Shown: positions 5,401 through 41,587 of the stretch, piece by piece | Numbering within the stretch: position 1 is the stretch's first letter | Layout of the letters: each line of letters opens with the position of its first letter | Assembly (NCBI GenBank): GCA_050273025.1 | Contig: CP158635.1 | Location: 18,042,001-18,106,000, forward strand | DNA: 64,000 bases | DNA from: Cenococcum geophilum | Lineage: Eukaryota | Reading direction: 5' to 3' | Notes under the pieces: generated by a model | Told to the model about the DNA's origin: nothing | The model's input: the letters and a program-made list of their open reading frames with translations, nothing else | Database searches by the model: none | Position numbers and translations under genes: made by a program

Positions 5401-8400
5401 TGTTGGTATGCTTTAACAATGTGCAGAATACATATATTACAATGATATGTACTATGCGGTGTTGTTAGTAGATTGTTCTTTTTCTACTTACGACGCGCGT
5501 TACATATATATATTGGGCGCGTCCTGCCATGTTCTGCCATGTTCTGCCACCTCGCCATTAGCTTACTTACCACTAGCGTGTTAGCTATGTCCTGCTATAT
5601 TCTGCCATATTCTGCTACTATACTATTAGTTTGCTTACCACTAGCGCATTAGCCGTCCTTATGATATATCTAACGCTTCTAGCTATACTAGGAGTACTTT
5701 AGAAAATATAAAGAACTAGTAGGCTATAACTATATAGTCCAAGAAATCCATATACGCACTTCTCCTCCCTTCCTTCCCTACCCTATGCCTCTAAATTAAC
5801 GCTATTATTAGTAGAACGTTCTACCCATTCTACCGTCTCTAACTTAATTCGGTTTATATTAATAAGTCGCTTAAGGGCTAATAACGGTTTGCTTTTAGTC
5901 ATAGCGTCTACAGGGTTGCTGTCTCCGTTAATCCACTTAACTTTAGCTATTTTATGTCTTTTGTATAACTGGCGTAGGCATATAACATTAATTATAAGTC
6001 TCTTCTCCTATGTTATTCCTAGCTTGATAAGGCATTTATAAATTAACTTAGAATCAGTATAAAGGATAAGCAGTAGGCTGATGTTAAGTTATAGTTTAAC
6101 TATAGCCTTAATTGTAGCGCCGATATCGAAACTATAGGCTATAGCGTATAATTCGGAGGCTAGTACGCTTCTAGTGACTCTTTTACACTTAACTAAGGAC
6201 TAGTAAACGATGTTCGCCTTATTTAATAAGTCTACTAGTATTAGGATATATCTAATTTATAATAAGAGGTCCTTATTATTTATAAATAAGGAATTAGTGA
6301 ATATAAGTAGTTAAAGTATCTCTATATTAAGTTTAACAAAGCTTAAACCTCTTATTAAGTTTTTAATTTGCCACTAAATTCTCTTATTAAGTAGTTTTGT
6401 GTCTTTCTCGTTAGGGTTAATTACCTAGGCAGCGTAGAATAAATTAAAAGAAGCTTTAGGCTAGCATACGGACGCAATATAAGCTCCTCTTGCTTATTAG
6501 GCGACGTATTAGTCCTTAGATATAAGTGCCGTATAAATAATACCTCTAAAGCTAGTTGTTATAATAGCTTCCTTAATATTAACAAGGGTTAGGTTCTAGT
6601 ATTGGCGCTCCTATATAAGTGTAATTGTATAGTCCTGTTGTTAAATAATGCCTCCATTAAACTTAATTGGGTGCTTTAGTATAAGGTACTCGCGTTCCTT
6701 AGTTAGAAACTTCACTTTCTTAATCTTTTCTTATTCTAAAGCTGTAAAAACCAAATTAGCTAAGAAGAGGGTATTATTAGTTTAAAGGCCAACTATTCTA
6801 AAGCTTATAGAATTATTAAGGTGGAATAAGCAGGGGTCATAAGTAGATTGGTTTATATTCAACTCCTTAGTATAGTAGTTGTAATAGATCTTAAACCAAT
6901 AATTGCCTACTTCTAGGATACCGTATAAAGGTCTAATGATCTTAAGGATTGTGCCTTGTAAGACTCTAAGTACTATACTAAGTTTAAGAGGTGCTCGGAT
7001 ATAGAAGTCTTAATTTAGTTTTATAATTAACTAAACGTAGGCTTATAAGATATCTTATAAGTAAAGGTATATATCGTTAGTCTAGGTTATAGCCGTAATA
7101 TAGAGAATAAGGCGTTAGCTGACTCGTTAAATTATAGGTGATTAGGTTAGTATAAGGTCTTTTTCTAAGTCATTATAGGCCTGTATAACTAGTCTTAATT
7201 TCTTAAAGGCCTTATTAGTACTGGGATTCTTAATTTTATTAACAAATCTAGAGTTAAATACTCTATTGCCTTAAGGTACGTCCTTAATATTAACTAATTT
7301 AAAGACTCCTTTCTTAAGTAGTCCTTTAACCTCTTTCTGTTGTAAGGCTATAAACTAACTATTAGTCTTATTCTTATCTTATAAGTATATAGATATATTT
7401 ATAGTATTAACTATAATAGGATACTTGCGTAGTCTGCCTTATCCTCACTTAACTAGTTAAGGTTCCTAAGGTAGTTCCATAATTAACTAAGGTAGTTCGT
7501 TCTCATTATTAGGTTATACGTCCTCTATATCTCTAGGTTCTTACAAGTATAGTTTTATAACTATACTACGAAAGTTAATAGGGCCGTGGGGGAGTTATAT
7601 AGTATAGGTCTTATTATTAATACTAAGTAGATTATAGGGACCTAACTAGAAACCAGGCTGGCCTATAGGTCCTTCTCTCTATGCCAGTATAAGTAAGTTA
7701 AGTGGTAGGTTATAAATTACGGTTGTTTTAAGGCCGTTGCGCATATTAAGAGCATTTACTACTTAACGTTCGGCTCTAATCTTCTTAACTTCTTCTATGG
7801 CTTTCTTAAGGGCTGTAGCTTGTTGTGCAACTATAGGGTTAGGTGCATTAGATTCTACTATGCGCGGGTAAGCTCCAAATACTAGTAAGGTGGGTATAAG
7901 GCCGTTAGGGCCTACTAAATTATTAATTGCCTTAAAAGCTATTTATAGAGCTATATCTTTATTAATATCTAGTAGTTCCGTGGTAATAATATGGTATATA
8001 CAGCGAAGGGGACCATAATAGCGTTCTACCATTCTAATTAAGTTATGGGCTTTAACGGGTATACTTTTTGTAATTGTTCCAAATATTATAGCGTACTACT
8101 TAAATTCCTTACTTATAAAGTTCTTGCCTGCATTATATATAATTATATTAGGAGGTCCCAAATATATATTAATCCAGCACATTCGTAGTATATCCCATAT
8201 GTGTTTAGCGCTAATGCTTTATAGTTATCTACTAGCTTAAAATCGTGTTCCTTTATTAACAATATATAAAAGGGGTGCGCCGTTAATATATATAATATTA
8301 ACCACGATTAAGTAGTTAAAATTAATATTATTATATATTGTAAATCTGAATCTGCTAGGTGATTTTCCGTATTTTTAATAATAATGGCAGTAGCGTGTAA

Positions 8401-16085: not shown

Positions 16086-19000
16086 TATATAGTCTTAGTT
16101 TACCATTTTTCTTTAGTATAAATAGTACTAGATAACTTACTGATAATTATAATAGTCTAATATATCCCTTTTATAGGGTTTCTTAGATAAACTCTTTAAG
16201 TGCTTATAACTCTTTTTCTATAAGTTTATAGGTTAGAAAGAACCTTAAACTTATTCCTAGTTCTAATTCTATTTTATAGTCCTATACTATATATTCTAAC
16301 AGTATCTTGCTTTCTAGTAACTATAGCTTCTTATTATACTTATGGTATTTTTCTAGTATATAATCTAACCCTTTTTTAGTTTCTTTATATATCTGTCGGG
16401 AATAGGGCAAGCGGTTGTCACGTGTCGCCGTGGCACTAGCGTAGTGAGGAACCTTAAGTTCCTCACCTACCCCCTAATTCTAAACAATAAGCTTTATAAC
16501 TAACATTCACTGTATCTACTTAAGTAGCATTAGTAAGTTACCCTATAACACCAACACTAATTAGTAGTTAAACACACAGTTAACTATAGAATAGTAAGGT
16601 TCTTAATAGAAGAGACAGTCTCGTGTAGGGGTGCTATATATACTTATATGGAATGGATCCCGGCAATACTGTGCTACCTTAAACTTACGGAAAACTAGTA
16701 ATAGAAGTATTACTAAGTACTAGGAGATACTAAGTTGCGTCTATTATATAGAATAACCACGTTTACGAAGATTTGGTTGAGTACTTTAGGTTAGAAGTAT
16801 TACTAAACCTAAGGTCCTAAGTTAATGTCTAAAACGCGTTAAAAATAATACTCTTAACACTCTGCCACGTTCCTAGCGGCCCTACCACATCAAAATTACG
16901 TTAATAACGCGCTCTCTAGCCCTTATACTCTGTTAGCATCTAAGGTAGTTACTAGCGCGCCCTTACCTTACGATAATTTTAGCTCTACTAGACTATTAAA
17001 GTTCTACTAGCACGCTATCCCTATATTCTTAACACTCTCTACACGTTAAATAACTGTTATTATAGCGTTAACCTATCTAAAGAAGTATAAAAAAGATATT
17101 AACCTAGAGATATAGGATAGACCTATAACCGACTTTATAACCGCTAAGTAAAAGGAGCTAAATAGATTCTTATTATACCGCATAGCACACTATAAAGATA
17201 GTAAATATAATAATACCATGCTATGGTATTATATAAAGGAGGACTTTATTAAATAGATAAAGGAAATATAGGTTCCTATATATAAGGATCTCGTATAGGA
17301 CTTCTGTAACTTCCTTTAGGAGTATAAAGTATTTATCCCTATAGACGGGGGAGGTATTAGAGATAATATTTAGGAGTATATTATTAAAGCAAAAGAAGAA
17401 TATAAATAGACTCTATAAGAGATTAAGCACTAACTACGCACTATAAAGAAGCTTAACTTATAATAGAATCCAAGCAATACGCTACTAGAGACGTACTCTA
17501 GTTCTATTACTCTAGAACCCCCTACTTCGCGACTTAATAACCTTTAAACTCTCCCACAGTAAGATTAAGTACTATACTCTATTTTATCGAGCTCTATATC
17601 CCTACTACAGCCTATAATATAATCCCCACCTCCTTAATTTTAAATGCAATCTTAACCTGACCTAGCACTACTTAGAGGCATCTTAAAGTTGCTTACGGAT
17701 CTTACGAAGCTCTATTTAGACTAGGAAAAGAAGTTTAGCAGGGAGCTATATAATATCCTTAATTTAAAGCTATATATCTTCTATAACTATTACTAGAAGG
17801 TAAGACTAGAACCTAACTAATATTATAACGCTTATTCCGTTATGCTTAAAGGCCGCGCTAATACCTTCTACTATAATCGTTTAGCAGGAAAAGGGTACAA
17901 TTTTAACTATATAATATATAAATTAAGATGCTACTTTAAAACAGAAGAGAATAAGTAATAGTATATATTAGAATAGAGAGAGACTACCTTTCTAAGGATT
18001 ATTGCTATAAACCCAGGTGTTTCTTGGCTTAATTATCTTTAAAAGCTCTTTAATTAACTTTAGATAATTTAGTATGGTTTATCCGAATTATATTAAGAGG
18101 ACTTCAGCCTACGCGATTAAGTTATTAGCGCATACTAAGATATTAAAGAATATAACCTTACTCTCTTTAATCTTATAAATACTTATAAAGGAGTATATGC
18201 TTAATTAAGATCCTTTATTAGTACCACTCTACGTTCTTAAGAAGTGTAGTAATTTAACACCTAACCCTAACCTACTTTAATTAACCTAGACGATTAATAT
18301 AACTATAACTAGACTAATTAAATATATCGTGGTAGGGGATATAGTAAAGGGTATAATTAACGCCGACTATAAGGCAATTATAGAGGTCCTTATAGAGGTT
18401 CATTTTAAAGTAATCACTAAAAGAAGTGTTATATTTATAAGAAGCTAAATTGCTAGTTAACTAGGCACCCCCTTAATAGACAAAAAGAGGTATATAATAA
18501 GTTTTGCCGGAGTATAAGAAATATTAAAAACTATAAGGTTACTATAGCCTACTTTTAAAGCTTCCTAGTTTAATATAAAGGCGTAAAAGATCTTAAGGGT
18601 AAGGTTAATAAGGCCGAATAGCTCCTTATAGATATAAAAATTAAGGAGTACTTACCCAACCAATACTTTACTAAGTATAGTGAGGTAGATAGTATATAAA
18701 CCATTACTATTCTTAATAACTAATCTACGCTCTATTTTACTATAAAGTTAGATATCTTTAATAAGCCAAGGGAAAGTTCCGCGTTCTCCTTTAATAATAA
18801 ATACTTAGCGAACGTCTTTTATAGTATTATGCCAGATACCGGAGCCGCAGGAGTATCTATAGTAGGAGAACCTTAAGTTCGAGCCCTTTAGCAGCTTAAT
18901 AGCTCTATTTAGATTAACTATTTAATGGTAGGCTAATACACGATTTGTTTTAGTAAGGGTACTATAATCTCTCTTAGCATAATTAGGGTCTAAACCCCCT

Positions 19001-22000
19001 TAGGGTATATTACCTTTTACGTTGTTCCTATAAATACCCCATTTCTATTTTATATTAGAGATATAGATAAATTAGGCGTTAAGCTTAATAACCTTAAGGA
19101 TATACTTATTTAGGGAGATAATTAGGTGCCCATTATGCGTAAGTAGGGTTACCCTTAGTTACTCCTTTATTAACTAGAAAAGAGTATTACTTAAAGCTAC
19201 CTAACTAAGTTAGAGTTACGTTAACTACATTATTATTTTAGCCACCTATCCGTTTATTAATTGCTTAGGGTTCTTTAGTAAGTAGGCTATAAAGTTAAGG
19301 TTAAGGCAATTAAGTATCTTATAAAGTACTACTATCACTACTAAATAAACTAGAAGTCCCCTAGCCGATTTAAGTTTACCCTTAAAGATAACTATAACTT
19401 TAACTTATATATTATTATTAACGTTATATATCTTAGCGGTAAGCTAGTACTCTAAGTCGTTGATTTTTTAACCTCCTTTTAAGCCGCACGATTCTTAAAG
19501 GATATATTAGCTAAGAACGCATAGGATACTCTTTAATTATGCTAGATTAATATCTACCTAGGACCCCCTAATTAAATCGTCTATAATGTAGGAAAGAACT
19601 TCTTATCTATAGAGTTTTAATAATAGATAAAGGCAATAGCAATTAAGGTTAAGGAAGTCCCTATTAAGGCATATAATAGCGTTAAAAAAGTAGAGCAATA
19701 TTACGCGCTATTATGCCGCGTATATAAGATTATTTCTTTAGAATTAGAGAATACTAGTAAAGAACTTACCTTATAAATAGCTGTTAAAGCTATTAATAAT
19801 TCCGCTAACCCGGATAGACTTGTACCTATATTATTAGTCTTTAGCGCCTACCCTTAAATAACTAATAATTCTTTACTATCTCCCTCCGTTATATAATAAG
19901 CTAAGGCTATTTACAAGGTAATAAAGGAGGTATAATATCTCTATGCTATACGCTAGGTTAACAACGTATTAGGAATAAGAAATGGCCTAAATACCTTAAC
20001 TATGCTTAATCTGCTACTCTAGTTTAAGGTATATATATAGCGTAAAAAGGGAGGGTGGTTAGGCCTATATTAACTTATTATAATTAATAGTTAAACTTAT
20101 ACTATTTAGATGCCTTATAGACCTACTTAATTCTATTTAACTATTATTAAGCCTTACTATAAAGATAATAGTTTTAAGCCTTTACAGGATGCCCTAGAAG
20201 AGGCCCTAGAGAAGAACTATAATTAATATACTCTAGAAGGCGACTATAATTCTAATATAATTATAGTAGATGCGCCACAACTATAACGCGGTAGAGGTCG
20301 CCTAAAGGGATTACAAAATTACTAATATTTTATTAATTTTAAAGAGTAATTTGTTGCTGCCATTAAGAATAGAGTTAAGCTATTAATGGCCTTTATAACA
20401 GCTAAGGAGAAGGCTAACTTTAAACTCGCAAAACAGCTCTAAAAAAAAGGTTATATTATAACTCTAGGAGCTCCTTTCTAAGCATTTAATAAGTAGGAGA
20501 TTAATAGTCTTATTATAAGAGGAGTCTTTAAATTTAAGAAGTATAACCCTACTAAGTTTAATAGAGTTCGTATCTTTAAGTTAAGAATAGTTAATAAGAT
20601 TAAGGGTAAAGCTACCGACGCCCTATTTAAGAAATTAAGGCTTATTATCTAAGGTTATAATAATAACGGTAAGGAAGTAATCCTTATATAATCCCCTATA
20701 ATTTAATAAGCTAGTTAGCAAGTTATTATTACGCTAGCTCCCTCCTTAATAAAGAATAAAATAGTGGTTTATTTGCGAGATATTACTTAGGCCTATACCT
20801 AATTAGAGATATACCTTTAGCGCTTAATATTAGTATATCTTCTAGAGTAAATTCGCTACTAATATCCCAAAGATATAATTATGGTTGTCCTTAAGCCATT
20901 ATACGGAATCGCAGAGGCAGGAACCTATTAGTAGGCTACTTATAGTAAGCACTATAAAGAGAAGCTTTTAATAACTACTTCTACGTTCGATCCCTGCTTC
21001 CTTATTATAACTATAGGAACTCTATTTAGAATTATTGGTATATAAACTAACAATATAATTATCTTAGGAGACAACTAATTCTTAGCCCTTAAAGAGGATA
21101 AGCTAGTAAAGGTAAACCTTATAGTAAAGCTAAAGGAAAGACTTAATTTAATAATACTATTACTCTTTAATAGATGTATCCTCTCCCTAAATAAGGATTC
21201 CATTACTTTACACTAGAAGGGTTAAGGTAAGAAGATTAACGTTATTAATATTAATTCTCTAAAGTAAGGATATATAGAATAACGCGCTCGCGGAGCTTAT
21301 ATTACTTCTATCTATTAACCTAAGGCTTCCTTTAATCTCTTTATTACTGCCTAATACCAGGAACTAACTAAGGATAATATTCTTAACCTAAATAAGCGTC
21401 TTTTCTAGTAAATAAGCCATCTTAATTAGGGACTACTCTATATACCTATTAATCTCCCTACTATTAAGCTCTTTGTATTTATTAATAGATTGTTTATAAA
21501 TAATAAAGATTTTAGCTCCTAGCTAGGATATAAGATTATTATCGCAAACAAATCTACTAGAGAGAATAACTTTATAATCTACGGCAATCTTATCTATTAG
21601 AGCTTAACTAAAAGTAAGCGCGTTACTTAAAGCGTCCTAGTATTAGAGATATATAGAATGGTTAGCAGAGTTAATATAGCAATTATAATTAGAACTACCC
21701 TTAAAATAATTATAGATTAACTTAAACTTCTTATTATCCCTATAATTATATACACCGACTTATATTCCCTCTATAAGTGTTTAGTTAAGCTTAGTACTAT
21801 AAAGAAAAAGCGCCTTATAATTAATATTATAGCACTTTAATAGTCCTATAAGCGTTAAGAACTCTTTAAGATTTAATAAATTAATAGCTAAGATAACCTA
21901 GTAGATATAATAATAAAGGCAAACCTAAATAAGGCACTAGAGATATTTGTTAATATAAATACTCTATATATACAAGTTAAAGGTTAGATTAAAAGGGAAG

Positions 22001-22018
22001 TTTAAAGAAGTTAAGATT

Positions 22019-22181
22019 TTATAGAATTTTAACCACCGGTTAAAGTTATCTAATTAGTTAGATTCTTACTAAGAGCGCTACGCCTAATTAATTCGGGTAA
22101 CGGTATATAGTTCTGCCGACGCTATTTATTAAGCTAGCTAATTAGGATTTTCTATACCCGGCATGGAAAATCGCTATTAGC
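22019..22181 (+). other. Multi-palindrome non-coding module in the Copia 3' UTR (copy 1)
   Basis: Aligns end to end with 41116-41278, with mostly transition differences. Contains inverted repeats such as tttaaccaccggttaaa and gattttctatacccggcatggaaaatc. Confidence 0.8.
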
Positions 22182-22237
22182 CCGCTTACTCCTAGCGCCT
22201 TAGCGGCTCTCTTGTCTTTGTGTTAACCCCTAATACT

Positions 22238-22264
22238 CTTCTTCTTCTTCTTCTTCTTCTTCTT
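22238..22264 (+). repeat. (CTT)9 microsatellite in Copia 3' UTR
   Basis: Direct read of the sequence. Confidence 0.95.
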
Positions 22265-25200
22265 AGCTTTATATCTTTATATAGTAGCAATCTATAAGTG
22301 TATATAGATGGCAACCATAAAAGAAGAGTTGCTAGTGTTGGGAATAGAGCAAGCGGTTATCACGTATTGCCGCGGCACTAGTGTAATAAGGAACCTTAAG
22401 TTCCTTACCTACCCCCTAATTCTAAACAACAAGCTTTATAACCAACATTTACTATATCTACTTAAGTAGCATTAGTGAGTTACCCTATGACACCAACAAT
22501 ATCGCTCCTACTTAGTACTATACTAACTTAGTTTATTATTATATCTTATAGTATTAAGTATTTCTAATATTAACTTAACCTATAATCTAATCGATCTTTA
22601 GATTATATTTCTATAACTAAGGTATTCCTAATACTGCCTTATTATTTCCTAATAGTAATATATTAAAAGACATCTTAATTTATCTCCCTTTAATGGTTAA
22701 CTAAATAGGTCCTGTTTTAAGATTAATAATACCTCCTCTATAGGCTATTAGATCTCCTAAAATTATTATTAATAAATAAGGATGTTCCTTCTTTCTATAT
22801 AGTAACCCTATCCTTTTAATTACTATTAGTAAAATATAGTTCCTTATTACTCTACTATCTACTAATACTTTAAACTATTAATCTTACTATTTAACTTATA
22901 AATTTAGGTATTGTTCTTAAATTCCTTTAAGGCTTTAAGGCTTTACTATTAGCTCCCTTTAGTTCCGTAGGCCTCTACTTTTCCTAACTACTAGCTACTA
23001 GATCCTATTTATACTTAGTCTACTTTTAGCTAATACTTAGTTCGCTTTTTATCTCTAATATACTATAGATATATATTCTTAGGACATTCCTACTACTATT
23101 ATCTATCTAGGCATTCTTCTGTAAAGAATCTTTTTAGTTAAAGTATTAAGTTCCCTTATCCTTAAACTTTTACTAGATACTAACTATGTATATACTTAGC
23201 ATTTCTAAACTTTGCCTTATTTAGTACCTAATATATTCTTACTAAGTACTTTTAATGCTTATTTTTTGGTGCTCTATATATATTATATATATTATCTATA
23301 TATATAATCCACGCCAATATATAATATACTTAGTGTCTTAGGTTAACTCTTAGCTTATCTTTATTCTTAAGTTTAAACCTCTTTTATATTAATTTAAGCA
23401 TTATAACTTTATTTATAGGTACTAAGATTTACCTCTTACTTTTTTAGTCCTCTAATTACTCCTTTAGATCCTTTAATATTATAATTAAGGCTCCTTTAAT
23501 ATAAGTTATGGCCTTCTCTATAATTGGGTAGTCTTAGATAACTTTCTTATCTAACTATATATAGAAATCTTCCCACTTATTATTATGTTGTTGCCTATAC
23601 CACTTTTAGTATAGCTTCTTAAGTATATACAGTCTATCCGTAAGAAAGTATCTTCTTATTACTGCGTTATAATAGCCCTTTATATATTATTCTTTAAATC
23701 TTATTAGAATTCCTAGATCCTCTTCTTACTTTAGTTTAATAAGCTACTTAGCTCTTAGTGTGCCTATCTTAGGTCTATTAGTAACTCTTTATATAGGTAC
23801 TCTATCCCTTATACATCCTAATATACTAGATCTCTTATTTAGTTTCTGCTCTTGCTATACAGTAATTCTTACTCTAAATTCTGCCATAGTTTCTTTCTTT
23901 TTACGTCTTATAAGTAGATTTTTAAAGTCTTCTTACTTTCTAATTCCTTTATTAATGGTCCTTATTTATATATTAAAATCTTAGTTCTATAGAATTCTTA
24001 ATCCTAAACTTGCTTCCGTCTTAAGCTTTACTCCTACCTTAGTCCTACTAAGCTTAGGTATTCTTATCTTGTCTTAAAAGTCTTAAATCTTACTTATTTT
24101 ATTTTAAAAATATTATATCTTTAGGAACTTCTATCCCGTACTTATTTATATATTTCTAAACTAAGCTACTATAACAGCTCGTATAATTACCTCTAAACCA
24201 AAGCTTGTAGATTACTATCTAGTAAAGATACTAAGCTAAGGAGAAGAAGAAGAGGTATATATAGGAGGCAGAGTAAACAGATATCCTATAAGGGCCGCCA
24301 AGCCGCTAGTAATAAGCGAGCCAATAACAGGTTGGCAGAATTTGGCAGGTAACGCGCCCCAGCACTATTACATCACCCCCTCCTCCTAAAAAAGCCTGCC
24401 CTTAGGCGTTATCTAAGTTCCTTATTATTATCTAGATTATTATAATTATCTAACCCCTCTTCCTAGCATTTAATCCAGCTATCTAATTTGCTTAGTAGTC
24501 CGGGGAGGTTTAGGTGGGCTAGGTAGAAGTCCCGTAATTTATAGGGGGAGTACTTAAAATTAGATACAGGATACCATTCTAAGTCCTTATTGTGGCCAAC
24601 CTAGCTTATATAGTATTTTAAGACACTATAGACCTTCTTAACTGCTAGGATCTCTTTAACTTCCTAGTTCTTATCCTCTGCAATCTAAATTAGCGGTAGG
24701 GGGTCGTTATATTGTCTAGGCAATGAGTTATTTACAGCCTTTTATAATTAGTCTAGGGAGAAAATAGGGTAGATCTTCATTAAATCTAGTAGTATAACCT
24801 TAAAGGAGTATTCTACCTTCTCCAAAATCTTATATAGACTAGCCATTTAGTAGTTTAACTTACGGCTTAGCCTCTAGGTTTTTTAGTTCTTTATTAATAC
24901 CTATACCTTATCTCCTACTTAGAAGTTTACTTCGCGACAATACTAATTTACGTTAGCCTCTTTTTTCTCTTACGCCTTTTTTATAATTATTTAAGTAGTC
25001 TCCTAGGCCCTATATATTCTCTCGGTAAATGCCTAGGCCTCTTTATAGCTAAGGCGTTCGCGAGCCGTTATAGGTTTAGTAGGCCTATTCCAATCAAAGG
25101 ACGTTTACGGTGCGTACCCGTTAAGCAGTTTAAATGGTGATATCTCTATACTATTATAGGGGAGCGTAAGCTGCGTGTAGTCTATTATAGGTAGTAATTC

Positions 25201-32685: not shown

Positions 32686-32973
32686 GAGCTTTATATAGAG
32701 CCTTTATACGCAGAGCTTCGCGTAAAGCCTTATATAGAGCCTTTATATATAGAGCTTCATACAGAGCTTTATATAGAGCTTTATACAGAGCTTTATATAG
32801 AGCTTTATGCAGAGCTTCGTATAGAGCTTTATATAGAGCTTCGTATAGAGCTTTATACAAAGTTTCGTATAGAGCTTTATATAGAGCTTTGTGTAGAGCT
32901 TTGTATAGAGCTTTATATAGAGCTTCGTACAGAGTTTTATATAGAGCTTTATACAGAGCCTTATATAGAGCCT
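32686..32973 (+). repeat. 12-bp minisatellite (AGAGCTTTATAT-like), ~23-24 units
   Basis: Direct read. Units vary mainly by C/T and G/A transitions. Confidence 0.9.
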
Positions 32974-34695: not shown

Positions 34696-37600
34696 TGTCA
34701 CAGCACTGACCTAACGCATACTATTTTATACTATCTCGTACTGTTTCCTACTATTAGCTAGCCCACCACTAGCGACTTAGCGGCCGGCCCTACTATTTCT
34801 ATATAATACCCCCTTTCTACCTTTTTCCCCTCTTTATACCACAACGTAGTTATTTAGTCTACTTTATTGTAGCACTATAACAGTTTATAGTATCTTTAAT
34901 TTACGCCCTATCGCGATCACTAATTCCTTATACCCTAGTTAATTAACCTCCACCCTAGAGCAATCGCGATCTACACACGCCTCTGCTAAAACTAATACGT
35001 CCCTAGAATAGTCCTAAAACAATCCTTAGTTTTTACCTAGCGCCTAAATAGGCGACACTAATAACGCCAAAATGGCCGAAACCTAAAACCCCCGCGATAT
35101 CTTTATAGACCACTTTATAGAGACATACCCTAATATTATATAGATAATCCGCTACTCCCTACTATACCTAAAGACCTTTAAGCCCAGCAAAGCTTACCTT
35201 ACCCTTATTAACTATATTAATGAGTTCCTTAACAATATTAAAGTAGGACTATAGTATATATATAATATAAACACCGCTAATAAGAAAGCTAACGAAAACC
35301 TTAGTACCCTTATCGCTTCCTAGACAGGAACTATTAACTCCTAAGTAGAGACTATTACCGTTCTAAAACAATTAACCCCTATAATAACGGTAGTAACCTA
35401 GTAAAAAAAACGGAGATCTAAAAACCCGCTAATATTTAGCGGAAAAGGCACCCCGCTAAAATAATAAGCTAATTTTAAAACCTAACACATTAAGATTAAA
35501 GGAGTCTTTAACCGGGACTGGGATTACTTTAACATAGTTTAGTCCTAGATCCTTTACATCTCGGATATACTAAAAGATAAGGCCTATAAGTTTATTAAGT
35601 AGGGCCTAGAGCTTATATACAAGAACCTAAACAATATATCTACGTGGAAATGGCCTACTAAGAAAGATATACTTAAAGACCTTACTACTTACTATAAGGT
35701 CCTTAATATAACCTAGGTTGTAAAGAATAAGCTTAACCATTTCCCTTAGGGTAAGCGTAATTACTAGTCCTAGAAGGGAGAGCTTAATAAGCTAATAGTC
35801 CGCGCCAAGAAGACAGATAAATAAAAGGTGGACCTACTCCAAAAGTTTATCTCTCTAAAGATAGAAGAGTTAGTACTTAGACTTGCCTATAAAATTAACA
35901 ACAGCGACTATATAGGTTAGAGTAAGCAGATGGATATATTTGCTAAGAACCTCGCGAACTATATACACTAAGCCAACCTTAAGAAGAACGCTAACCACCG
36001 CCTACCTACCTAAGCCTCTGCCCCTATATTAACCTTAACCCTAGTAGTAACTAAAGAACCTATAGACCTTAATAGAATCTTAAATATAGAGCGTAAGCGC
36101 CGCGTTAATAATAGACTATACCTTACCTATAGCCTGCCCGGCCACTAAAAGGATGCCTATAACCCTACTAAGACAGCAAACCTAGTTCTAATACTACCCC
36201 ATTAAACGACGTAAACTAATAACCGCGGATACGGCGACTGTGGAGTCTATTATAGACGCGGCGACCGCGGAGCCTATTATAGCCGCGGCGGATAACCCTC
36301 CCCCTTTAACCCTACGGCTTAGTTACTCTAAACTATGCCCTATATAGGAGCCCAACCCGTTAATAACGCCTAGTATTAGCAACTTTGCATTAGCAAATAC
36401 GAACACGGCTATGTTGTTAGTAAGGTATTATCTTCCTATACCCTAACTAAAACTAAGACCAATACTGCTAGCTAGACGGACACTGGACCACCCCGTTAAG
36501 ACAGCTCTATACCCTAGTTATTAAAAGGTAGACCCTTAGACTAAGTCGCGTCTAAGGGTCTAAACTATATAAGGAGGAAGATAAGAAGATTAGGTCCCTA
36601 TTACTAAATTAATTAGTCCTTTTTATTAGTAAACTGCTACTTAATCTTAAATCAGTAAATAGTAATAAGAAATTAATCCTTATTTAAACCTAACTCTCCT
36701 TATTACGTAACCTATACCCCTAAGTTTATATTAATATAGTAAGCCTAGTAGACTCCGGTAGTACTATAATGGCATTTACTAACGTAGAGTCTATTATAAA
36801 AAAGTATAATATTATAACTAAGAAGCTACTAGTACCTAGGCTACTACACCTTATAGATAGTATTCTAACTTTGCTTATTACGGACTACTTTACCACCTAA
36901 ATATTAATCGGCCTCTATACTAAAGCCATACTCTTTTTTATTACTAAACTCTTACCTACTACCCTAATTATCCTAAGTATGCCCTAGCTTTAGAAGCACG
37001 AGCCCCGTCCTAGCTTTAAGAAACTTAAGATCTACTTTAACTTAGACTATTACTCTAGGCACTACCTCCCGTAAGGGATAACCGACGTTAGTAGGGACGC
37101 CTTATATAGATACTTAGCACTACTAAGCCTAGTGCCTAGGACTATATATAAAGCCCTAATAATAAAAGACGTTCTTAATAAAGGGGAGCCTATATAGCTG
37201 TAAAGAAATAAGATAGTGGAAGACTAGACTACCTTAGCACTTAAGACTAAAACGACGGGCTAGCTAGCCCTACTAAGACTAAGGAAGAAGGTCTGCTTTA
37301 TACCGCTACTATTAAAAATCTAACCCTAATCTAGGCACTATTTAAACCCTAACTACCTAGCCTAATACCCAGAACTAAGCTATATACTATATACGCATAC
37401 TATAGCTTATATTATAGCAAGGATTAGCTATAGAACTACTAAGACCTAGATAATAGAAACCGCGCCATTATAACGCCTAACCTTATACCCGTCTCCCGCG
37501 CGTACTATATAGGGCCGCCGCCTTATTTCCGCCCCTCTGGGCCAACTAAGCTATACTAGCCTAGCTATAGCACTGGAGAACTAGATATGCCCTAACCTAG

Positions 37601-40600
37601 ATAATATTAAATACACTTATGCTATTAATTTCACCCAGTTTTATAAATAAAAAGATATAAAGGTAATAAGGATCTATATAGCGGAGCTAATAGAACTAGT
37701 TAAATAAGATAAGTATTAACAGCTACTTAAAGAGCTGCCTATAGGCCTAATAGAAGTATTAAACCTATTAAAAAGGTCTTTCCGCTGGCTAGTAGAAGGC
37801 GACTATACGATAAAGGAAGCCCGTAAAGTGCTCCCCCCCCTATTTCTATAACTTCCTTAAGATAAATCTAAAAACTAAACCTAAGCTTTTACGTCGGAAG
37901 ATAGTTAATACTAATATTAAAAAATTCCTAAAAGCCAAACCAGGATTAACCCGCGAAGATATTCTATAACGCCTACTAAAGGAGTTTAATAAATATATTA
38001 AGCACTTCCTCCCTAAAAACGTAGATAAGCTACCCCCTTACCAACCATAGGACTATAAAATTAAGATTACCCCCGGAAACTAGGCCCCGTACTATAAAAA
38101 TAGACCACTCTTACCTACTAAACTTAGGTATATAGAAGTGGATTAATAAGATGCTAAATAAGGGTTTTATCCACGAATTAACCTTACTAGCTACTATACC
38201 ACTCCTCCTCGCTACTAAGCCTAGCGGCGGTATATAAATCTGCTATAACTACCAAGGCCTAAATATAGTTACTATTAAGAATTAATACCTACTGCCACTA
38301 ATCCGCGAGACACTTGACGCACTTTATGGTGCTAAGTACTTTACTAAACTTAATATAATTACTGTGTTTAACCAGATCCGGATTGCGGAGGGCTATAAGT
38401 AACTTATAGTATTTATTACCCGGTTCGGACTCTATAAGATACTAGTTATACTATTTAGCCTTTATAACGCACCCGCTATATTCTATATAACGCCCTTAAC
38501 AACTACTACACCGCCTACCTTAATAACGTCCTTATCTTCTCTAAAACACGCGCTAAGCATACTAAGTATATAAATAAAGTTATCCAAAGACTTAGTAATG
38601 CTGGACTTTAGATTAATATTAATAAGTCTAAGTTCTACTCTACTAAAACAAAATACCTTAGCTTAATTATCTTAACTAATAGCATAACTATAGACCCTAA
38701 GAAGGTACAGGCCTTATAGAAATAGAAGGACCCAATATTAATTAAAGAACTACAACAATTTCTTAGCTTCGCGAATTTCTACTAACGATTTATCTAAGGC
38801 TACTCTGCTATCGCTACACCTATAATAAAACTCCTAAAGAAGGATATTAGATGGCTATAGGGACTAGAATAAGCCAAATTATTTAAGGCCCTTAAGGGAG
38901 CCTTTACTTTAGCACTAGTACTAGTATACTATAACTATACGAAGAAAATAGTAGTAGAAACAGACGTATTAAATTAGGCTTCTAGTAGAGTCCTTTCCCA
39001 ATATAATAATAACGGAAAATTAAGACTAGTTATATTCTTCTCTATAAAACACTCTGCGCTAGAGTATAACTACGAGATCTATAATAAAGAACTCTTAGTT
39101 ATTGTTAAGGCTTTAGAGGAATAGCGTCCTAAGCTATAAGGGACTAAGGAGCTATTTAAAATTATTACCAACTATAAAAACCTACAGACGTTTATAACTA
39201 CTAAGTAGCTAAACTAGCGCTAAATCTAGTAGGCAGAGTTCCTTTTATAGCTTAACTTTATAATTATATATAGACCCAGCAGCAAAGCTACGCTCCCTAA
39301 TACCCTAAGCCGGCTACTAGAAATAAGGCCTAAGGACACTAATAATAAACGCCTCCGCTACTAAGCCTAAGTCGTTATACCTCCCTAGAAAGTTAACCCT
39401 ATAATCTTAGAAGAATTACTATATAAGTCCCGTAACTCTAATAACGCGGAGTTTATAGCCGCTCTAGACCCTAAAATAGCCGAAAAGTTACTAGATAAGT
39501 TAATCTAGCTAAAATACTAGGAGAATAAACTCGTAAAAGATATAGTAGCAGCCCTACGTAATTAGAAAGCTCGCTATTAGCTAAAGAAGATTAGGAAATT
39601 ACTCTATTATAATAAGTTAGAATATAGTATCGTTAATAAACAGATCTACTTCCGCTAACGTCTCTTCGTCCCTAACGCCCTAGACCTCCGCCTAGAAGTT
39701 ACCCATTACTCTTATAGTAGCGGCCCCACTAGTTACCCCAGCTGGGTTAAAACTCTTAACCTTTTAAACTAAATATACTAGTAGCTAGGAATCTCCTAGT
39801 TTACAGCTACCTTTATTAAAGACTATACCCTATACTTTCGCACTAAGACCCCCTATTCTACCCTACCTAATTTCCTAAAGCTACTAGAATTACCCGCCCG
39901 CCCATAAACCGATATCTTAATTAACTATATTATAACGCTACTAGTATACTAACACTACGGTAAGGTATATAAATATATCCTTATTATTATAGACCGCCTA
40001 ACTAAAATATAATACCTTATTTTAGTTATAGGACTCTTAATAGAGGAGCTAGTTAATAGCTTTGTTAATAATATATATAAGCTCTATAGTGCACCAAACA
40101 CAATTATCTCCAATCGCGGTATATAATTTATTAGCAACTTCTAGCGACAACTAAGTAAACGCCTTAAGACAACCTTATAACCAAGCTTAGCCTAATACCC
40201 AGAAACGGACGGCTAAACTAAAATTATTAACGCTGCCGTAAATAAATACCTTTATACTTTTATTAGCTTTATATAGGACAACTAGGTTAACTACCTACCG
40301 CTTACTAAGTTTGCTATAAATAACTAAGTTAATAAGAGTATAGGCATCTCCCCGTTTTTTATAAACTATGGCTTTAACCCTTACCTTAGAATTAAGCCTG
40401 CTGGCCCCTACCTACCAACACTATTAGTATAAGTAAAGAAGGAGTTCTTCTATACAGACTCTATGGCTAACCGCTTTAAGCGGATATTAATATAGCTTAA
40501 GGCCCTAGCCCGGATTTTATAGTAACGCTATAAAGATAATGCTAATACCTATAGGGATAAGAGCGCGTTATTCTACAAAGGCAATATAGTTATAGTTAGC

Positions 40601-41587
40601 TTAGAAAATATAAAGATAAATAGATTTAAGAAGAAATAGGATGACAAATAGGACAGCCTATACCCCGTACTTATAGTATACTAAGGGATAATTATAGTAG
40701 ACCTCCCGGACTATATCTAAGTAAATAAATTCTTTTATATATCTAAGGTCTGCCTCTAGGCCGCTAAAGAGATCCCTAGTTAAGTAAATATTAATACTAT
40801 AGAGCACCGTAATATATAAGGACGAGTAGTAAAAAGAGATAATAACGGCAATATAAAAGACAAATAAAAGTTTAAGAAAATCCTTAATGTACATAATAAA
40901 GACCCCTAGGGCCTAACTTATAAGATTAAATGGAAATATTATAAGGATATAACCTAGCAGCTAAAGGAAGACCTAAAGGGTTGCGAACAAGCTATACAGC
41001 ACTTTTATAAGTAACACCCTAAGAAGCTAGAACCCCCAGACTGGGCACGAGATAAGGAAAAGTTACACTAAGGTCGCGGCCAACCACCATATTAAAATTT
41101 GTGGTGGTTAAAATGTTATAAAACTTTAACCAGCGGTTAAAGTTGTCTAATTAGCCAAATTCTTACTAAGAAACGCCACGCGGACCAATTTAGGTGGCGG
41201 TATAGAGTTCTACCGACTTTACTTACTAAACTAACCAATTAGGATTTTCTATGCCCGGTATAGAAAATCGCCATTAGCTTAGTTAAGGGCGGTAAGCAAA
41301 ACTAATATCTTTGCAGTAAAAAATAGGCAACCCTATATACTGCCTATTTTTAAGTTATTTATTTAGTTTAGGGACCAAACTATCTAAGGGAGAGGAGTAT
41401 TGTTACGGCACTGACCTAACGTATACTGTTTTATACTGTCTCGTACTATTTCCTACTATTAGCTAGCCCACCACTAGCAACTTAGCGGCCGGCCCTACTA
41501 TTTATATATAATACCCCCTTTCCACCTCCTTCCCCTCTTCATACTACAACGTAGTTATTTAGTCTACTTTATTATAGCACTATAACA
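34696..41587 (+). mobile_element. Gypsy/chromovirus family B (complete, 6.9 kb)
   Basis: 187-bp LTRs at 34696-34882 and 41401-41587, TSD gttcc (34691-95, 41588-92), PPT aagggagaggag. Protease LVDSG ~36745, RT ~38100-38700, integrase PETDG(Q)T ~40200, chromodomain ~40860-41045. Confidence 0.93.
41116..41278 (+). other. Multi-palindrome non-coding module in Gypsy B 3' UTR (copy 2)
   Basis: Homologous to 22019-22181 and lies between the pol stop and the PPT. Confidence 0.8.

What the first reader, a model, noticed from the sequence alone, without database searches (positions are those of the whole stretch)
22019..22181. Same ~163-bp palindrome-rich module in the 3' UTRs of a Copia and an unrelated Gypsy
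Seen: 22019-22181 (Copia) and 41116-41278 (Gypsy B) align end to end, in the same orientation and the same position (after the pol stop, before the PPT), while their flanks are unrelated. The module is a chain of inverted repeats: an ~10-bp stem aactttaacc/ggttaaagtt; an enclosing stem (de-RIP ccaattggccag...ctggccaattgg) around three small hairpins (ttctt/aagaa, cgccac/gtggcg, cggta/taccg, the last being CGG-N12-CCG); and a ~12-bp stem gattttccatgc/gcatggaaaatc. No TSD is evident. Inference: either a cloverleaf-like RNA element (packaging, stability, export or translation) or an array of protein-binding palindromes, exchanged between superfamilies by template switching, or a tiny parasite that targets retroelement 3' UTRs. 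I do not recognise it as a named family.
Basis: partly seen in the sequence, partly recalled or inferred. Interest (0 to 1): 0.8.

Follow-up and report, generated by a model that had tools for sequence, protein, structure and literature searches.

The report
Shared hairpin cassette in retrotransposon tails
The repeated 170-base stretch is real, and it is the local form of a 49-base palindromic hairpin that many unrelated retrotransposon families of this fungus carry just after their last gene and have swapped by recombination.

Summary
Window 22010-22181 and 41107-41278 align at 80% over 173 nt (E 7e-38) and their flanks are unrelated. Both lie 20-35 nt after the pol stop of complete, RIP-degraded elements with 5-bp target duplications: a GalEa-type Copia and a chromovirus Gypsy.

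A public metagenome scan widens the picture. The 3' third of the module is a 49-nt two-fold-symmetric hairpin (CCAAT, 3 nt, 13-bp arm, C, 13-bp arm, 3 nt, ATTGG). It occurs at 146 distinct sites, nearly all just downstream of the last ORF:
- Copia: 54 sites
- Gypsy lineages in sense: 43 sites
- A DIRS-like tyrosine-recombinase retroelement: 11 sites, inverted
- One further Gypsy lineage: inverted

The flanking blocks are mosaic between families. The window's Copia is a recombinant. Its closest relatives lack about 140 nt that it shares with Gypsy-B-type tails, and the right-hand crossover lies in the shared hairpin. No other Copia context has this part (0 of 54).

RNA-seq reads cover the hairpin. 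It matches no Rfam family and no tRNA, and it has no TIR or TSD.

Function is not shown. My best reading (about 0.4) is a self-complementary RNA stem that pairs heterologous genomic RNAs and acts as a template-switch hot spot. Rivals are a DNA-level CCAAT/palindrome binding site, a host-factor 3'UTR element, and a neutral palindrome.

The parts
16394..22498 (+). Copia A: a complete GalEa-type Ty1/Copia element, RIP-degraded, nested in another element. TSD is ATATC (16389-16393 and 22499-22503).
   Evidence: LTR pair found by self-BLAST. TSD read. pol relatives reach E 2e-246 with Copia domain order.
16394..16556 (+). 5' LTR of Copia A (163 bp, TGT...ACA). It is followed at 16557-16565 by CTAATTAGT, the CHSeq1 of the published GalEa Conserved Hairpin Site; there is no tRNA primer-binding site.
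   Evidence: Passages of PMC5445492 read.
21985..21987 (+). Present stop codon of Copia A pol, after ...DNLVDIIIKANL...LYIQVKG.
   Evidence: Frame-3 translation.
21999..22134 (+). 5' part of the module in Copia A. It is a patch absent from the closest Copia relatives and shared with Gypsy-B-type 3'UTRs. It holds stem 1 (22025-22047), a CTAATTAG motif (22050-22061) and three small hairpins.
   Evidence: Alignment with L073, L054 and L036. Query positions 40-137 are missing in Copia loci. The stem-1 regex matches 0 of 54 Copia contexts.
22135..22183 (+). Core hairpin, copy A (RIP-worn). CTAAT 22138-22142; 3 nt; arm 22146-22158; centre C 22159; arm 22160-22172; 3 nt; ATTAG 22176-22180.
   Evidence: RNA fold -16.0 kcal/mol, z -3.0.
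22176..22300 (+). Downstream blocks of Copia A: block d (ATTAGCCCGCTTAC..CTAGCGCCTTAGCGGC), then (CTT)n and CTTAGCTT..TATC...GTAGCAATCTA. These are shared with other Copia families and with Gypsy2-type tails.
22317..22498 (+). Polypurine tract (about 22317-22328) and 3' LTR of Copia A (22336-22498).
34696..41587 (+). Gypsy B: a complete chromovirus-type Ty3/Gypsy element, RIP-degraded and nested. TSD is GTTCC (34691-34695 and 41588-41592). LTRs are about 34696-34882 and 41401-41587.
41107..41231 (+). 5' part of the module in Gypsy B: stem 1 (41122-41144) and the small hairpins. It is native to this family; 13 outside loci align end to end at 84-91% over 301 nt.
41232..41280 (+). Core hairpin, copy B. 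Arms 41243-41255 and 41257-41269, centre 41256.
   Evidence: -12.9 kcal/mol, z -3.05.
24190..24345 (-). 3'UTR of a third element, a Gypsy2-type chromovirus (pol 26853 to 24346 on the minus strand). It carries blocks d and e, but the hairpin itself is missing (..TTCTGCCAACCTGTTATTGGCTCG..).
56675..56717 (-). Fragment of a second hairpin-less cassette of the same form.
34751..34785 (+). Block-d-like motif inside the LTR (U3) of Gypsy B, with no hairpin. The twin copy lies at 41456-41490.
   Evidence: nhmmer. The same arrangement is seen in 19 outside LTR copies.
5552..5666 (+). Two block-d-like motifs (5552-5585 and 5623-5666) plus ATTCTGCC repeats inside the LTR of a second GalEa-type Copia (5396-11265, coded on the minus strand), so they are inverted relative to that element. 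Twin copies lie at 11130-11245. This element's short 3'UTR has no hairpin.

Best explanation
The module is the local, composite form of a shared 3'-terminal cassette. Its constant part is a 49-nt interrupted palindrome. It sits downstream of the last ORF and upstream of the PPT/LTR, so each genomic RNA carries it once, near its 3' end. It occurs in GalEa-type Copia, in several chromovirus Gypsy lineages and in a DIRS-like tyrosine-recombinase retroelement of one RIP-active ascomycete lineage.

Shown:
- The distribution, position and orientation of the hairpin.
- Mosaic flanks that differ by family group.
- The recombinant nature of the window's Copia, with one crossover in the hairpin.
- Inversion, duplication and loss variants.
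- Presence of the hairpin in RNA-seq reads.

Inferred mechanism:
1. In the RNA the palindrome folds as a 12-13-bp stem extended by CCAAT/ATTGG.
2. Because it is self-complementary, it can also form an extended duplex with any other RNA that carries it. This holds in either orientation.
3. That pairing would link RNAs of different families, allow occasional co-packaging, and stall reverse transcriptase at the stem. Template switches would therefore cluster there and carry the cassette and its neighbours from family to family.

Whether it also serves the host element (true dimer linkage or packaging) or merely propagates itself remains open.

I put about 0.55 on an RNA-level role of some kind and about 0.4 on this particular mechanism.
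For: - Two window copies at E 7e-38 with unrelated flanks.
These held 148 sites, 146 of them distinct, in 123 loci.
- Contexts of the 146 sites:
  - Copia pol C-terminus directly upstream in sense: 54 (median 90 nt from ORF end to centre)
  - Gypsy-B type in sense: 27 (median 169 nt)
  - Gypsy2 type in sense: 16
  - DIRS-like ORF ending 51-167 nt away on the opposite strand: 11
  - Gypsy on the opposite strand: 3
  - Unassigned: 35, of which 15 have flanks under 1.2 kb
- The DIRS-like call rests on RVT_1, split direct repeats, and relatives of the C-terminal domain. Of these relatives, 7 of 10 hit Pfam Phage_integrase, and their profile's best PDB match is Cre.
- The hairpin lies outside the LTR in 12 of 12 Copia loci with a detectable LTR pair and in both window elements.
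- Copia A matches L073, L054 and L036 except for a patch of about 140 nt of Gypsy-B type that ends in the hairpin.
- Family consensus sequences show that the blocks are reshuffled between families.
- DNA contigs of a coded run break away from the window at 22074, 22138, 22181 and 22301. They also show a strand-inverting joint between 22064 and 22180.
- For a natural, little-RIPped copy, hairpin MFE is -19.4 and -25.2 kcal/mol (given strand and its reverse complement; z -4.2 and -5.1). Homodimer cofold is -52 and -65 kcal/mol, more than twice the monomer.
- One pair (alignment columns 72/78) is G-C in most copies and C-G in 14 copies from at least 5 flank contexts. No copy has a half-changed transversion state apart from one T.T.
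- The sister Gypsy family keeps both arms of the CGCCAC/GTGGCG hairpin while losing 12 nt of its loop.
- Raw RNA-seq reads cover the hairpin at depth 37 against 2 by strand, with 33 of 37 reading the un-RIPped C at 22153. They leave the window sequence exactly at 22140 and 22178, the edges of the symmetric unit.
Against: - Only one pair covaries. All other double changes are C-G to U-A, as RIP produces in both arms of a palindrome. Half-changed states are not biased towards G.U (17 U.G against 42 C.A at pair 69/81).
- Loops and stems are equally invariant. That pattern fits recognition of sequence as well as of shape.
- Columns 61-90 were fixed by my own search pattern at the primary sites, so their invariance is partly built in.
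- The palindrome is perfect to a single central base, which is unusual for a selected RNA hairpin.
- Four cassette copies lack the hairpin, in at least two deletion forms, and one form recurs three times. It is therefore not indispensable.
- Known dimerisation sites of Ty1 and retroviruses lie in the 5' region (search listing; otherwise recalled).
- Co-packaging of Copia, Gypsy and DIRS RNAs has not been shown.
- DNA-level recombination could make the same mosaics. The inverted flanks in the DIRS-like family are not what simple switching between sense RNAs predicts.
Confidence: 0.4

Rival explanations
1. DNA-level element. The 49-bp two-fold-symmetric site is bound as duplex DNA by a dimeric factor together with the CCAAT-binding complex. 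It acts as an orientation-independent regulatory, boundary or anti-silencing site for the integrated element or for its circular DNA forms.
For: - Symmetry runs to the central base, with inverted CCAAT/ATTGG at both ends. The left box reads AACCAATCAG in little-RIPped copies; its likeness to the NF-Y/HAP consensus is recalled, not tested.
- Loops are as invariant as stems.
- The site occurs in both orientations relative to the coding strand.
- Short tandem repeats (ATTCTGCC or a 23-mer) often lie just upstream, like arrays of binding sites.
- The neighbouring block d also occurs inside LTR U3 regions.
Against: - The hairpin itself was never seen inside an LTR: 12 of 12 Copia loci, both window elements, and 19 LTR copies of block d that lack it. 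It is therefore not copied upstream of the promoter at each cycle, which a selected enhancer would be expected to be.
- The G-C to C-G swap is always symmetric (14 against 0). Independent half-sites do not require that.
- No binding data exist.
Confidence: 0.2
2. RNA element that recruits a host factor rather than another RNA. Candidates are an upstream enhancer of 3'-end formation used only at the 3' LTR, a nuclear-export or stability element, or a block to exonuclease that leaves a stable 3' fragment.
For: - Its place in the RNA is unique: after the stop codon, before the PPT, outside the LTR.
- The LTRs are very short (163 and about 187 bp), leaving little U3 for upstream signals.
- In two metatranscriptome contig sets, word depth at the hairpin is 5536 and 2687, against about 10-15 on the Copia coding part. 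In DNA contigs the two are about equal.
Against: - Two lineages (21 sites by flank family) carry it inverted. This changes both loops and all the non-palindromic flanks.
- No Rfam family matches.
- The RNA depth peak can come from many families collapsing on one shared word, or from DNA in the libraries; the tool itself warns of this.
- Hairpin-less copies exist.
Confidence: 0.2
3. Neutral or selfish DNA palindrome. This would be a recombination- and slippage-prone sequence with no role for its hosts. It is spread by ectopic gene conversion or insertion, and it is seen in 3'UTRs only because that is the one stretch of a retroelement that tolerates foreign sequence.
For: - Mosaic blocks, an inversion joint, tandem duplication about 101 nt apart in one Copia family, and recurrent loss.
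- Both orientations occur.
- Sequence identity across families could reflect recent spread rather than selection.
Against: - No TIR or TSD.
- No site was found in a gene, intron or plain intergenic context among 146. However, 35 sites are unassigned, and every locus was fetched through the hairpin itself.
- It always lies within about 40-270 nt of the ORF end, although LTR U3 and 5' leaders should also tolerate inserts.
- The compensated swap points to a pairing constraint.
Confidence: 0.15

Closest known systems
[quoted passage not shown] 2017, PMC5445492; passages read)
   Same: A short conserved palindrome or hairpin in a non-coding part of Pezizomycotina Copia elements. An 'extended CHS' is shared between distant families within one species. 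Both Copia elements of the window carry its CHSeq1 (CTAATTAGT) right after the 5' LTR.
   Different: The CHS lies at the 5' end in place of the PBS. It is described for Copia only and has a different sequence. The passages I read say nothing of a 3' element or of Gypsy or DIRS sharing. The supplements were not opened. The 9-mer shared with the module (22050-22058) is no more frequent than chance in this RIPped DNA: 6 found, 5.4 expected.
[quoted passage not shown]
   Same: Different retro-transcribing elements in one host share and homogenise a non-coding cis region by frequent region-specific recombination.
   Different: That case concerns plant pararetroviruses, partnerships between autonomous and non-autonomous species, and intergenic promoter/leader regions. 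Here the elements are autonomous, belong to three retroelement groups, and share a defined 49-nt palindrome.
s2m, the stem-loop found in 3'UTRs of unrelated RNA virus families (recalled; no call)
   Same: A short, sequence-invariant hairpin in the 3'UTR that has moved between unrelated replicons by recombination, with an unsettled function.
   Different: s2m belongs to RNA viruses of animals. It is not palindromic to its centre and does not occur in both orientations.
Dimer initiation/linkage palindromes of retroviruses and the PAL sequences of Ty1 (search listing only: PMC6844567, PMC5454406, PMC3592414; otherwise recalled)
   Same: Self-complementary sequences in the genomic RNA that pair two genomes and favour recombination near them.
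   Different: Those lie in the 5' leader/gag region. They are short loop or linear palindromes and are family-specific. Dimerisation by this hairpin has not been tested.
Shared 3' tails of LINE/SINE partners (recalled; no call)
   Same: Unrelated retroelements carry the same 3'-terminal sequence.
   Different: In those pairs the tail is recognised by the partner's reverse transcriptase and links a parasite to an autonomous element. Here all partners are autonomous and use different priming schemes.
MITEs and foldback elements
   Same: Small, palindrome-rich and repeated.
   Different: This has no terminal inverted repeats bounding the unit, no target duplication, and no dispersed non-TE contexts among the sites seen.

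Membership tests
MITE / foldback DNA transposon | Terminal inverted repeats at the unit's ends and a target-site duplication | tested here: not met
   The ends of the shared stretch (22010 and 22181; 41107 and 41278) are neither inverted repeats of each other nor flanked by direct repeats.
MITE / foldback DNA transposon | Dispersed insertion in varied genomic contexts | tested here: not met
   111 of 146 sites sit next to the end of a retroelement ORF. None was seen in a host gene or in plain intergenic DNA; 35 are unassigned. All loci were fetched through the hairpin pattern, so the sample is not a full census.
Any Rfam RNA family (including ribozymes, tRNA-like and miRNA precursors) | Covariance-model score at or above the gathering threshold | tested here: not met
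   0 hits in the whole window at gathering thresholds. On 10 less-RIPped loci at E up to 1, the only hit was mir-2511 at 23.6 bits against a threshold of 100, and it lay away from the hairpin.
tRNA-derived SINE / tRNA-like structure | A tRNA-like cloverleaf detectable by ARAGORN | tested here: not met
   0 tRNA or tmRNA genes in the window.
GalEa Conserved Hairpin Site | 9-nt CHSeq1 directly after the 5' LTR with a complementary CHSeq2 12-41 nt downstream | tested here: not met
   The module lies at the 3' end. Copia A has its own CHSeq1 at 16557-16565. CHSeq2 was not identified in the RIPped sequence.
Retroelement dimer-linkage site | Self-complementary RNA sequence able to form an intermolecular duplex | tested here: met
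   Computed only. Homodimer cofold is -52 and -65 kcal/mol against -19.4 and -25.2 for the monomer.
Retroelement dimer-linkage site | Dimerisation or packaging depends on it in particles | not testable with these tools
   This needs native gels, SHAPE in particles and mutant elements.
CCAAT-box (Hap/NF-Y) binding site | CCAAT pentamer with consensus-like flanks, bound by the complex | tested here: inconclusive
   CCAAT and ATTGG are present and free of transversions in 146 copies, at columns outside the search pattern. The consensus is recalled and binding was not tested.
Tyrosine-recombinase core site (lox/FRT-like) of the DIRS-like element | Inverted binding arms around a short spacer, placed at the junction that defines the element's termini | tested here: not met
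   The arms and spacer fit in form. However, the palindrome lies about 740 nt inside one end of the DIRS-like unit, not at its termini.
Shared non-coding cis module exchanged by recombination (as in pararetrovirus NRS) | The same non-coding block in otherwise unrelated elements of one host, with mosaic boundaries | tested here: met

The most novel reading that the evidence does not exclude
The palindrome is a parasite of parasites. It would be a 49-nt self-complementary RNA handle that needs no genes and no ends of its own. It makes genomic RNAs of unrelated retroelement orders (Copia, Gypsy, DIRS-like) pair with each other and uses the resulting template switches to copy itself into every family that shares a cell. 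This would tie the whole retroelement community of a genome into one recombining network.
Probability: 0.2. Interest if true: 0.85.

Novelty: new variant of a known kind. Interest (0 to 1): 0.68.

Why it matters
Retrotransposon superfamilies are usually treated as evolving separately. Recombination is documented within families, or between an autonomous element and its non-autonomous partners.

Here one short sequence lies in the same functional slot of Copia, Gypsy and tyrosine-recombinase retroelements. It is nearly letter-for-letter identical once RIP is discounted, and there is a caught-in-the-act recombinant. If the hairpin works in the RNA, it points to a step that all these elements share and that has no described cis signal in fungi: pairing, co-packaging, 3'-end formation or export.

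If it works in DNA, it is a common regulatory site that TEs trade. Either way it gives a compact, testable handle (49 nt, with a natural compensated variant and natural deletion variants) on how different retroelements interact inside one genome. It is also a practical marker for annotating the 3' ends of RIP-degraded elements.

My six paper searches and the passages I read found no description of it. That covers the held library only.

Tried and rejected
- **Whole-genome search:** no genome is held for this window.
- **Earlier findings of the scan:** none by place or by sequence.
- **Rfam and ARAGORN:** nothing.
- **Pfam on stop-masked frames of Copia A:** 0 families, even in pieces. Classification came instead from a full HMMER search and Pfam on its intact relatives.
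- **Pfam on stop-masked frames of several unassigned loci:** mostly 0 families. This search did reveal host genes (ATG7, fungal rhodopsin) and a tandem-repeat pseudo-ORF.
- **C-terminal domain of the DIRS-like family:** a single-sequence Pfam scan and a PDB search found nothing. A homologue search among longer proteins also found nothing. The near-length search and a profile then worked.
- **Link between the module's CTAATTAGT and the GalEa CHSeq1:** rejected as chance.
- **Palindrome as the DIRS-like recombinase's integration site:** rejected because it is not at the unit's termini.
- **Assigning the sense of the RNA reads:** reads on the hairpin and reads on the Copia pol end lie on opposite strands (37:2 against 0:8). 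The library chemistry and the family of origin are unknown, so I draw no conclusion on sense.
- **RIP-type double changes as covariation:** rejected, because left and right changes occur about independently.
- **A paper on TE expansion in one candidate ascomycete:** it holds none of the terms hairpin, palindrom, DIRS, Ngaro, GalEa or untranslated. I draw no conclusion about the source organism.
- **Scans not made:** the viral and prokaryote collections, and the phage, plasmid and E. coli collections, were not scanned.
Full report
**1. The observation**

The window is 33% G+C and is a nest of RIP-degraded transposons. BLASTN of each claimed copy against the window returns the other copy: 22010-22181 against 41107-41278, 80.3% over 173 columns, E 6.7e-38. 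Nothing else scores below E 1e-6 apart from the copies' own inverted self-matches and one further minus-strand match (E 2e-7) to 41243-41328, which overlaps copy B's end. Alignments show that the flanks are unrelated. Of the 39 differences, 27 are transitions. With two offsetting single-base indels, only about 7 transversions remain. Before RIP the two copies were therefore about 95% alike.

**2. The two hosts**

Self-comparison gives two LTR pairs.

Copia A:
- Spans 16394-22498, with 163-bp LTRs and TSD ATATC.
- Its stop-masked pol finds 4505 relatives, the best at E 2e-246.
- Four intact relatives have gag_pre-integrase or rve upstream of RVT_2, which is the Copia order.
- Directly after the 5' LTR stands CTAATTAGT. 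This is the CHSeq1 that Donnart et al. describe for fungal GalEa Copia elements lacking a PBS.

Gypsy B:
- Spans 34696-41587, with TSD GTTCC.
- It has RVT_1, RT_RNaseH_2 and RT_RNaseH, then integrase and a weak chromodomain.

The module starts 20-35 nt after each pol stop. It ends 115-155 nt before each 3' LTR.

**3. Copies elsewhere**

No genome is held for the window. I therefore scanned the metagenome collection with a 30-letter purine/pyrimidine pattern of the terminal palindrome. In the window this pattern matches only the two copies, with 0 matches expected by chance.

BLAST with the two window cores finds 148 sites in 123 loci, of which 146 are distinct. Host genes on some contigs (ATG7, a fungal rhodopsin) show that the contigs are fungal. 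All copies are RIP-like degraded.

**4. Contexts**

I ran tblastn with an intact Copia relative and with stop-masked pol translations of Gypsy B, a second Gypsy and the DIRS-like element. This places an ORF end next to the hairpin in 111 of 146 sites:

| Context | Sites | Median distance, ORF end to hairpin centre |
|---|---|---|
| Copia, sense | 54 | 90 nt |
| Gypsy-B type, sense | 27 | 169 nt |
| Gypsy2 type, sense | 16 | 69 nt |
| Family with ORF on the opposite strand (DIRS-like) | 11 | 63 nt |
| Gypsy on the opposite strand | 3 | about 1 kb |
| Unassigned (15 with short flanks) | 35 | not applicable |

By flank similarity, most of the unassigned sites fall into the same families.

The opposite-strand family is DIRS-like on these grounds:
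- It has RVT_1.
- It has a C-terminal domain whose relatives hit Phage_integrase in 7 of 10 cases. The profile of those relatives is best matched in the PDB by Cre, at E 0.044 over the catalytic end.
- It has split direct repeats: a 118-nt repeat near both ends and a 166-nt repeat.

In 12 of 12 Copia loci where an LTR pair can be seen, the LTR starts 157-582 nt after the hairpin centre. The hairpin is therefore in the 3'UTR, not in the LTR.

**5. What is constant and what is not**

In the 146-row alignment, columns 52-100 (49 nt) have essentially no transversions, and similarity falls off sharply on both sides.

One caveat applies. Columns 61-90 were fixed by my search pattern at the primary sites. 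Columns 52-60 and 91-100, which hold CCAAT and ATTGG, were free and are equally constant.

DNA contigs and RNA reads of coded public runs leave the window sequence at 22138/22140 and 22178/22181. These are the edges of the symmetric unit.

Outside it the tails are mosaics:
- Short tandem repeats, either ATTCTGCC-type or a 23-mer.
- A TTCTGC(C/A)GAC block.
- One of two downstream blocks. The first (GCTCGCTTAC..CTAGCGCCTTGGCGG) occurs in Copia, Gypsy2, DIRS-like and a further family. The second (GCTCGGTTAAGGGCGGTAAGC) occurs in Gypsy B, its sister family and the inverted Gypsy.
- A longer block with (CTT)n that is shared by several Copia and Gypsy2 families and by Copia A.

Variants seen:
- One Copia family has two hairpins about 101 nt apart.
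- One Gypsy lineage has stem 1 in sense but the hairpin segment inverted.
- A DNA contig shows the corresponding strand-inverting joint, 22064/22180.

**6. The window's Copia is a recombinant**

Copia A is collinear with L073, L054 and L036 through the end of pol and again from the hairpin onward. In between, it carries about 140 nt (21999 to about 22140) of Gypsy-B type. Stem 1 is found upstream of the hairpin in 25 of 27 Gypsy-B-type contexts and in 0 of 54 Copia contexts. By contrast, 13 outside loci align end to end with the 301-nt Gypsy B query at 84-91%. The full module is therefore native to Gypsy B and was acquired by this Copia. The right crossover lies in the shared hairpin and the left crossover falls just after ..ATTAAAAGGGA.

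**7. Other cassette pieces in the window**

A profile of the outside copies finds the hairpin only twice. Block d, however, turns up at eight further places:
- In a Gypsy2-type element on the minus strand. Its tail (about 24190-24345) has blocks d and e but no hairpin.
- In a fragment at 56675-56717.
- In both LTRs of Gypsy B.
- Twice, inverted, in each LTR of a second GalEa Copia (5396-11265). That element's own short 3'UTR lacks the hairpin.

In the outside loci there are 166 block-d sites. Of these, 145 have the hairpin, 19 lie in Gypsy-B-type LTRs without it, and 2 are hairpin-less.

**8. Structure**

With the hairpin written as 19 pairs, 92.6% of cells pair, against 30-43% when the partner is slid by 1-3 columns. 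That margin is expected for a structure read off these same sequences.

Six of the 12 inner pairs never vary. Variation is almost all C/T and G/A. At pair 69/81 the counts are C-G 26, U.G 17, C.A 42 and U-A 61, which is close to independence of the two sides. RIP, not selection, explains these 'compensatory' cells.

The exception is pair 72/78: G-C, A-U or G.U in 112 copies, A.C in 19, C-G in 14, T.T in 1. No C.C or G.G occurs. The 14 C-G copies lie in at least five flank contexts. All were found as secondary sites, because my pattern excluded them.

A natural, little-RIPped copy folds at -19.4 kcal/mol on the given strand and -25.2 on its reverse complement (z -4.2 and -5.1). Homodimer duplexes are computed at -52 and -65 kcal/mol.

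**9. Transcription**

Four runs were laid on window 21700-22520 at 80% likeness or more.
- A raw-read RNA-seq run (about 12% of it read) gives 50 partial reads. Depth is 37 against 2 (by first-mate strand) on 22148-22175. Of these, 33 of 37 read the un-RIPped C at 22153. The reads diverge at 22140 and 22178, so they come from another, expressed family that shares only the symmetric core.
- Eight reads of the opposite polarity lie on the Copia pol end.
- Two metatranscriptome contig sets have word depths of 5536 and 2687 on the hairpin, against about 10-15 on the Copia coding part. In DNA contigs the two regions are about equal. The tool warns that such libraries can hold DNA and that depths of all contigs are summed, so I use this only as a lead.

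**10. Reading**

Shown: a transcribed 49-nt palindrome with a fixed place after the last ORF in three kinds of retroelement, exchanged between them with breakpoints at its edges.

Not shown: what it does.

- I favour an RNA-level, orientation-independent role based on self-complementarity, in which heterologous RNAs pair and template switches cluster at the stem. This reading accounts at once for the cross-family identity, the breakpoints, the tolerance of inversion, the position outside the LTR and the symmetric swap.
- The DNA-binding reading explains the perfect symmetry, the CCAAT boxes and the invariance of the loops. It does not explain why the site stays outside U3.
- A host-factor RNA element explains the position but not the inversions.
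- A neutral palindrome explains the rearrangements and the losses but not the constancy of place.

Known relatives in concept are the GalEa 5' hairpin site, with its 'extended' form shared between families (PMC5445492). Others are the recombinational homogenisation of non-coding regions between pararetroviruses (PMC5491270), and, from memory, s2m, retroviral and Ty1 dimerisation palindromes, and LINE/SINE 3' tails. None of these matches in place, sequence or breadth of hosts.

Noticed in passing
window 16557-16565 and 10970-10979: Both Copia elements of the window have the palindromic (A)CTAATTAGT directly after the 5' LTR and no tRNA primer-binding site. This is the hallmark published for fungal GalEa elements, whose priming mechanism is still unknown.
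   Followed up: partly
L006, L023, L028, L037, L050, L058, L060, L066, L078, L088 (for example L023:5650-10053): A unit of about 5 kb encodes one long RIP-degraded ORF with RVT_1 and a C-terminal tyrosine-recombinase domain. It is framed by split direct repeats (118-nt and 166-nt), so it is a DIRS/Ngaro-like retroelement family. In L006 it sits about 0.5 kb from an ATG7 gene.
   Followed up: partly
window 24190-24345 (-) and 56675-56717 (-); L015:1-60; L026:3400-3460: Cassette copies in which the hairpin is missing while both flanks are kept. There are at least two junction forms. The same form recurs in three places, which suggests that a hairpin-less lineage still multiplied.
   Followed up: partly
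L041, L069, L096, L099, L113, L122, L029 (for example L041:5853-6074): One Copia family carries two hairpins about 101 nt apart. The downstream one always has the compensated C-G variant of the pair next to the apex.
   Followed up: partly
L023:5650-5960, L075:5400-5960, L019:5138-5878, L041/L069 upstream of the hairpin: Arrays of short tandem repeats (8-nt ATTCTGCC-like, a 23-mer GTTCCACCGCAACTGTCCACCGA-like, and a 12-24-nt unit that reads as an EVLVEVL pseudo-ORF) lie between the ORF end and the hairpin in several families.
   Followed up: no
window 32722-33021: A tandem array of a 12-nt unit, about 25 copies at 65-92% identity, lies inside the nest of elements.
   Followed up: no
window 22025-22047 and 41122-41144; alignment A5 columns 33-56: The central base of the stem-1 loop is G in the Gypsy B family and C in its sister family and in Copia A. 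This is what a flip of the whole hairpin would give. The sister family has also lost 12 nt of the loop of the CGCCAC/GTGGCG hairpin while keeping both arms.
   Followed up: no
window 21700-22520, runs X18 and X20: In two metatranscriptome contig sets, the summed word depth on the hairpin is several hundred times that on the adjoining Copia coding sequence. In a DNA run the two are about equal. This could reflect many expressed families, a stable RNA fragment, or an artefact of summing contigs.
   Followed up: no
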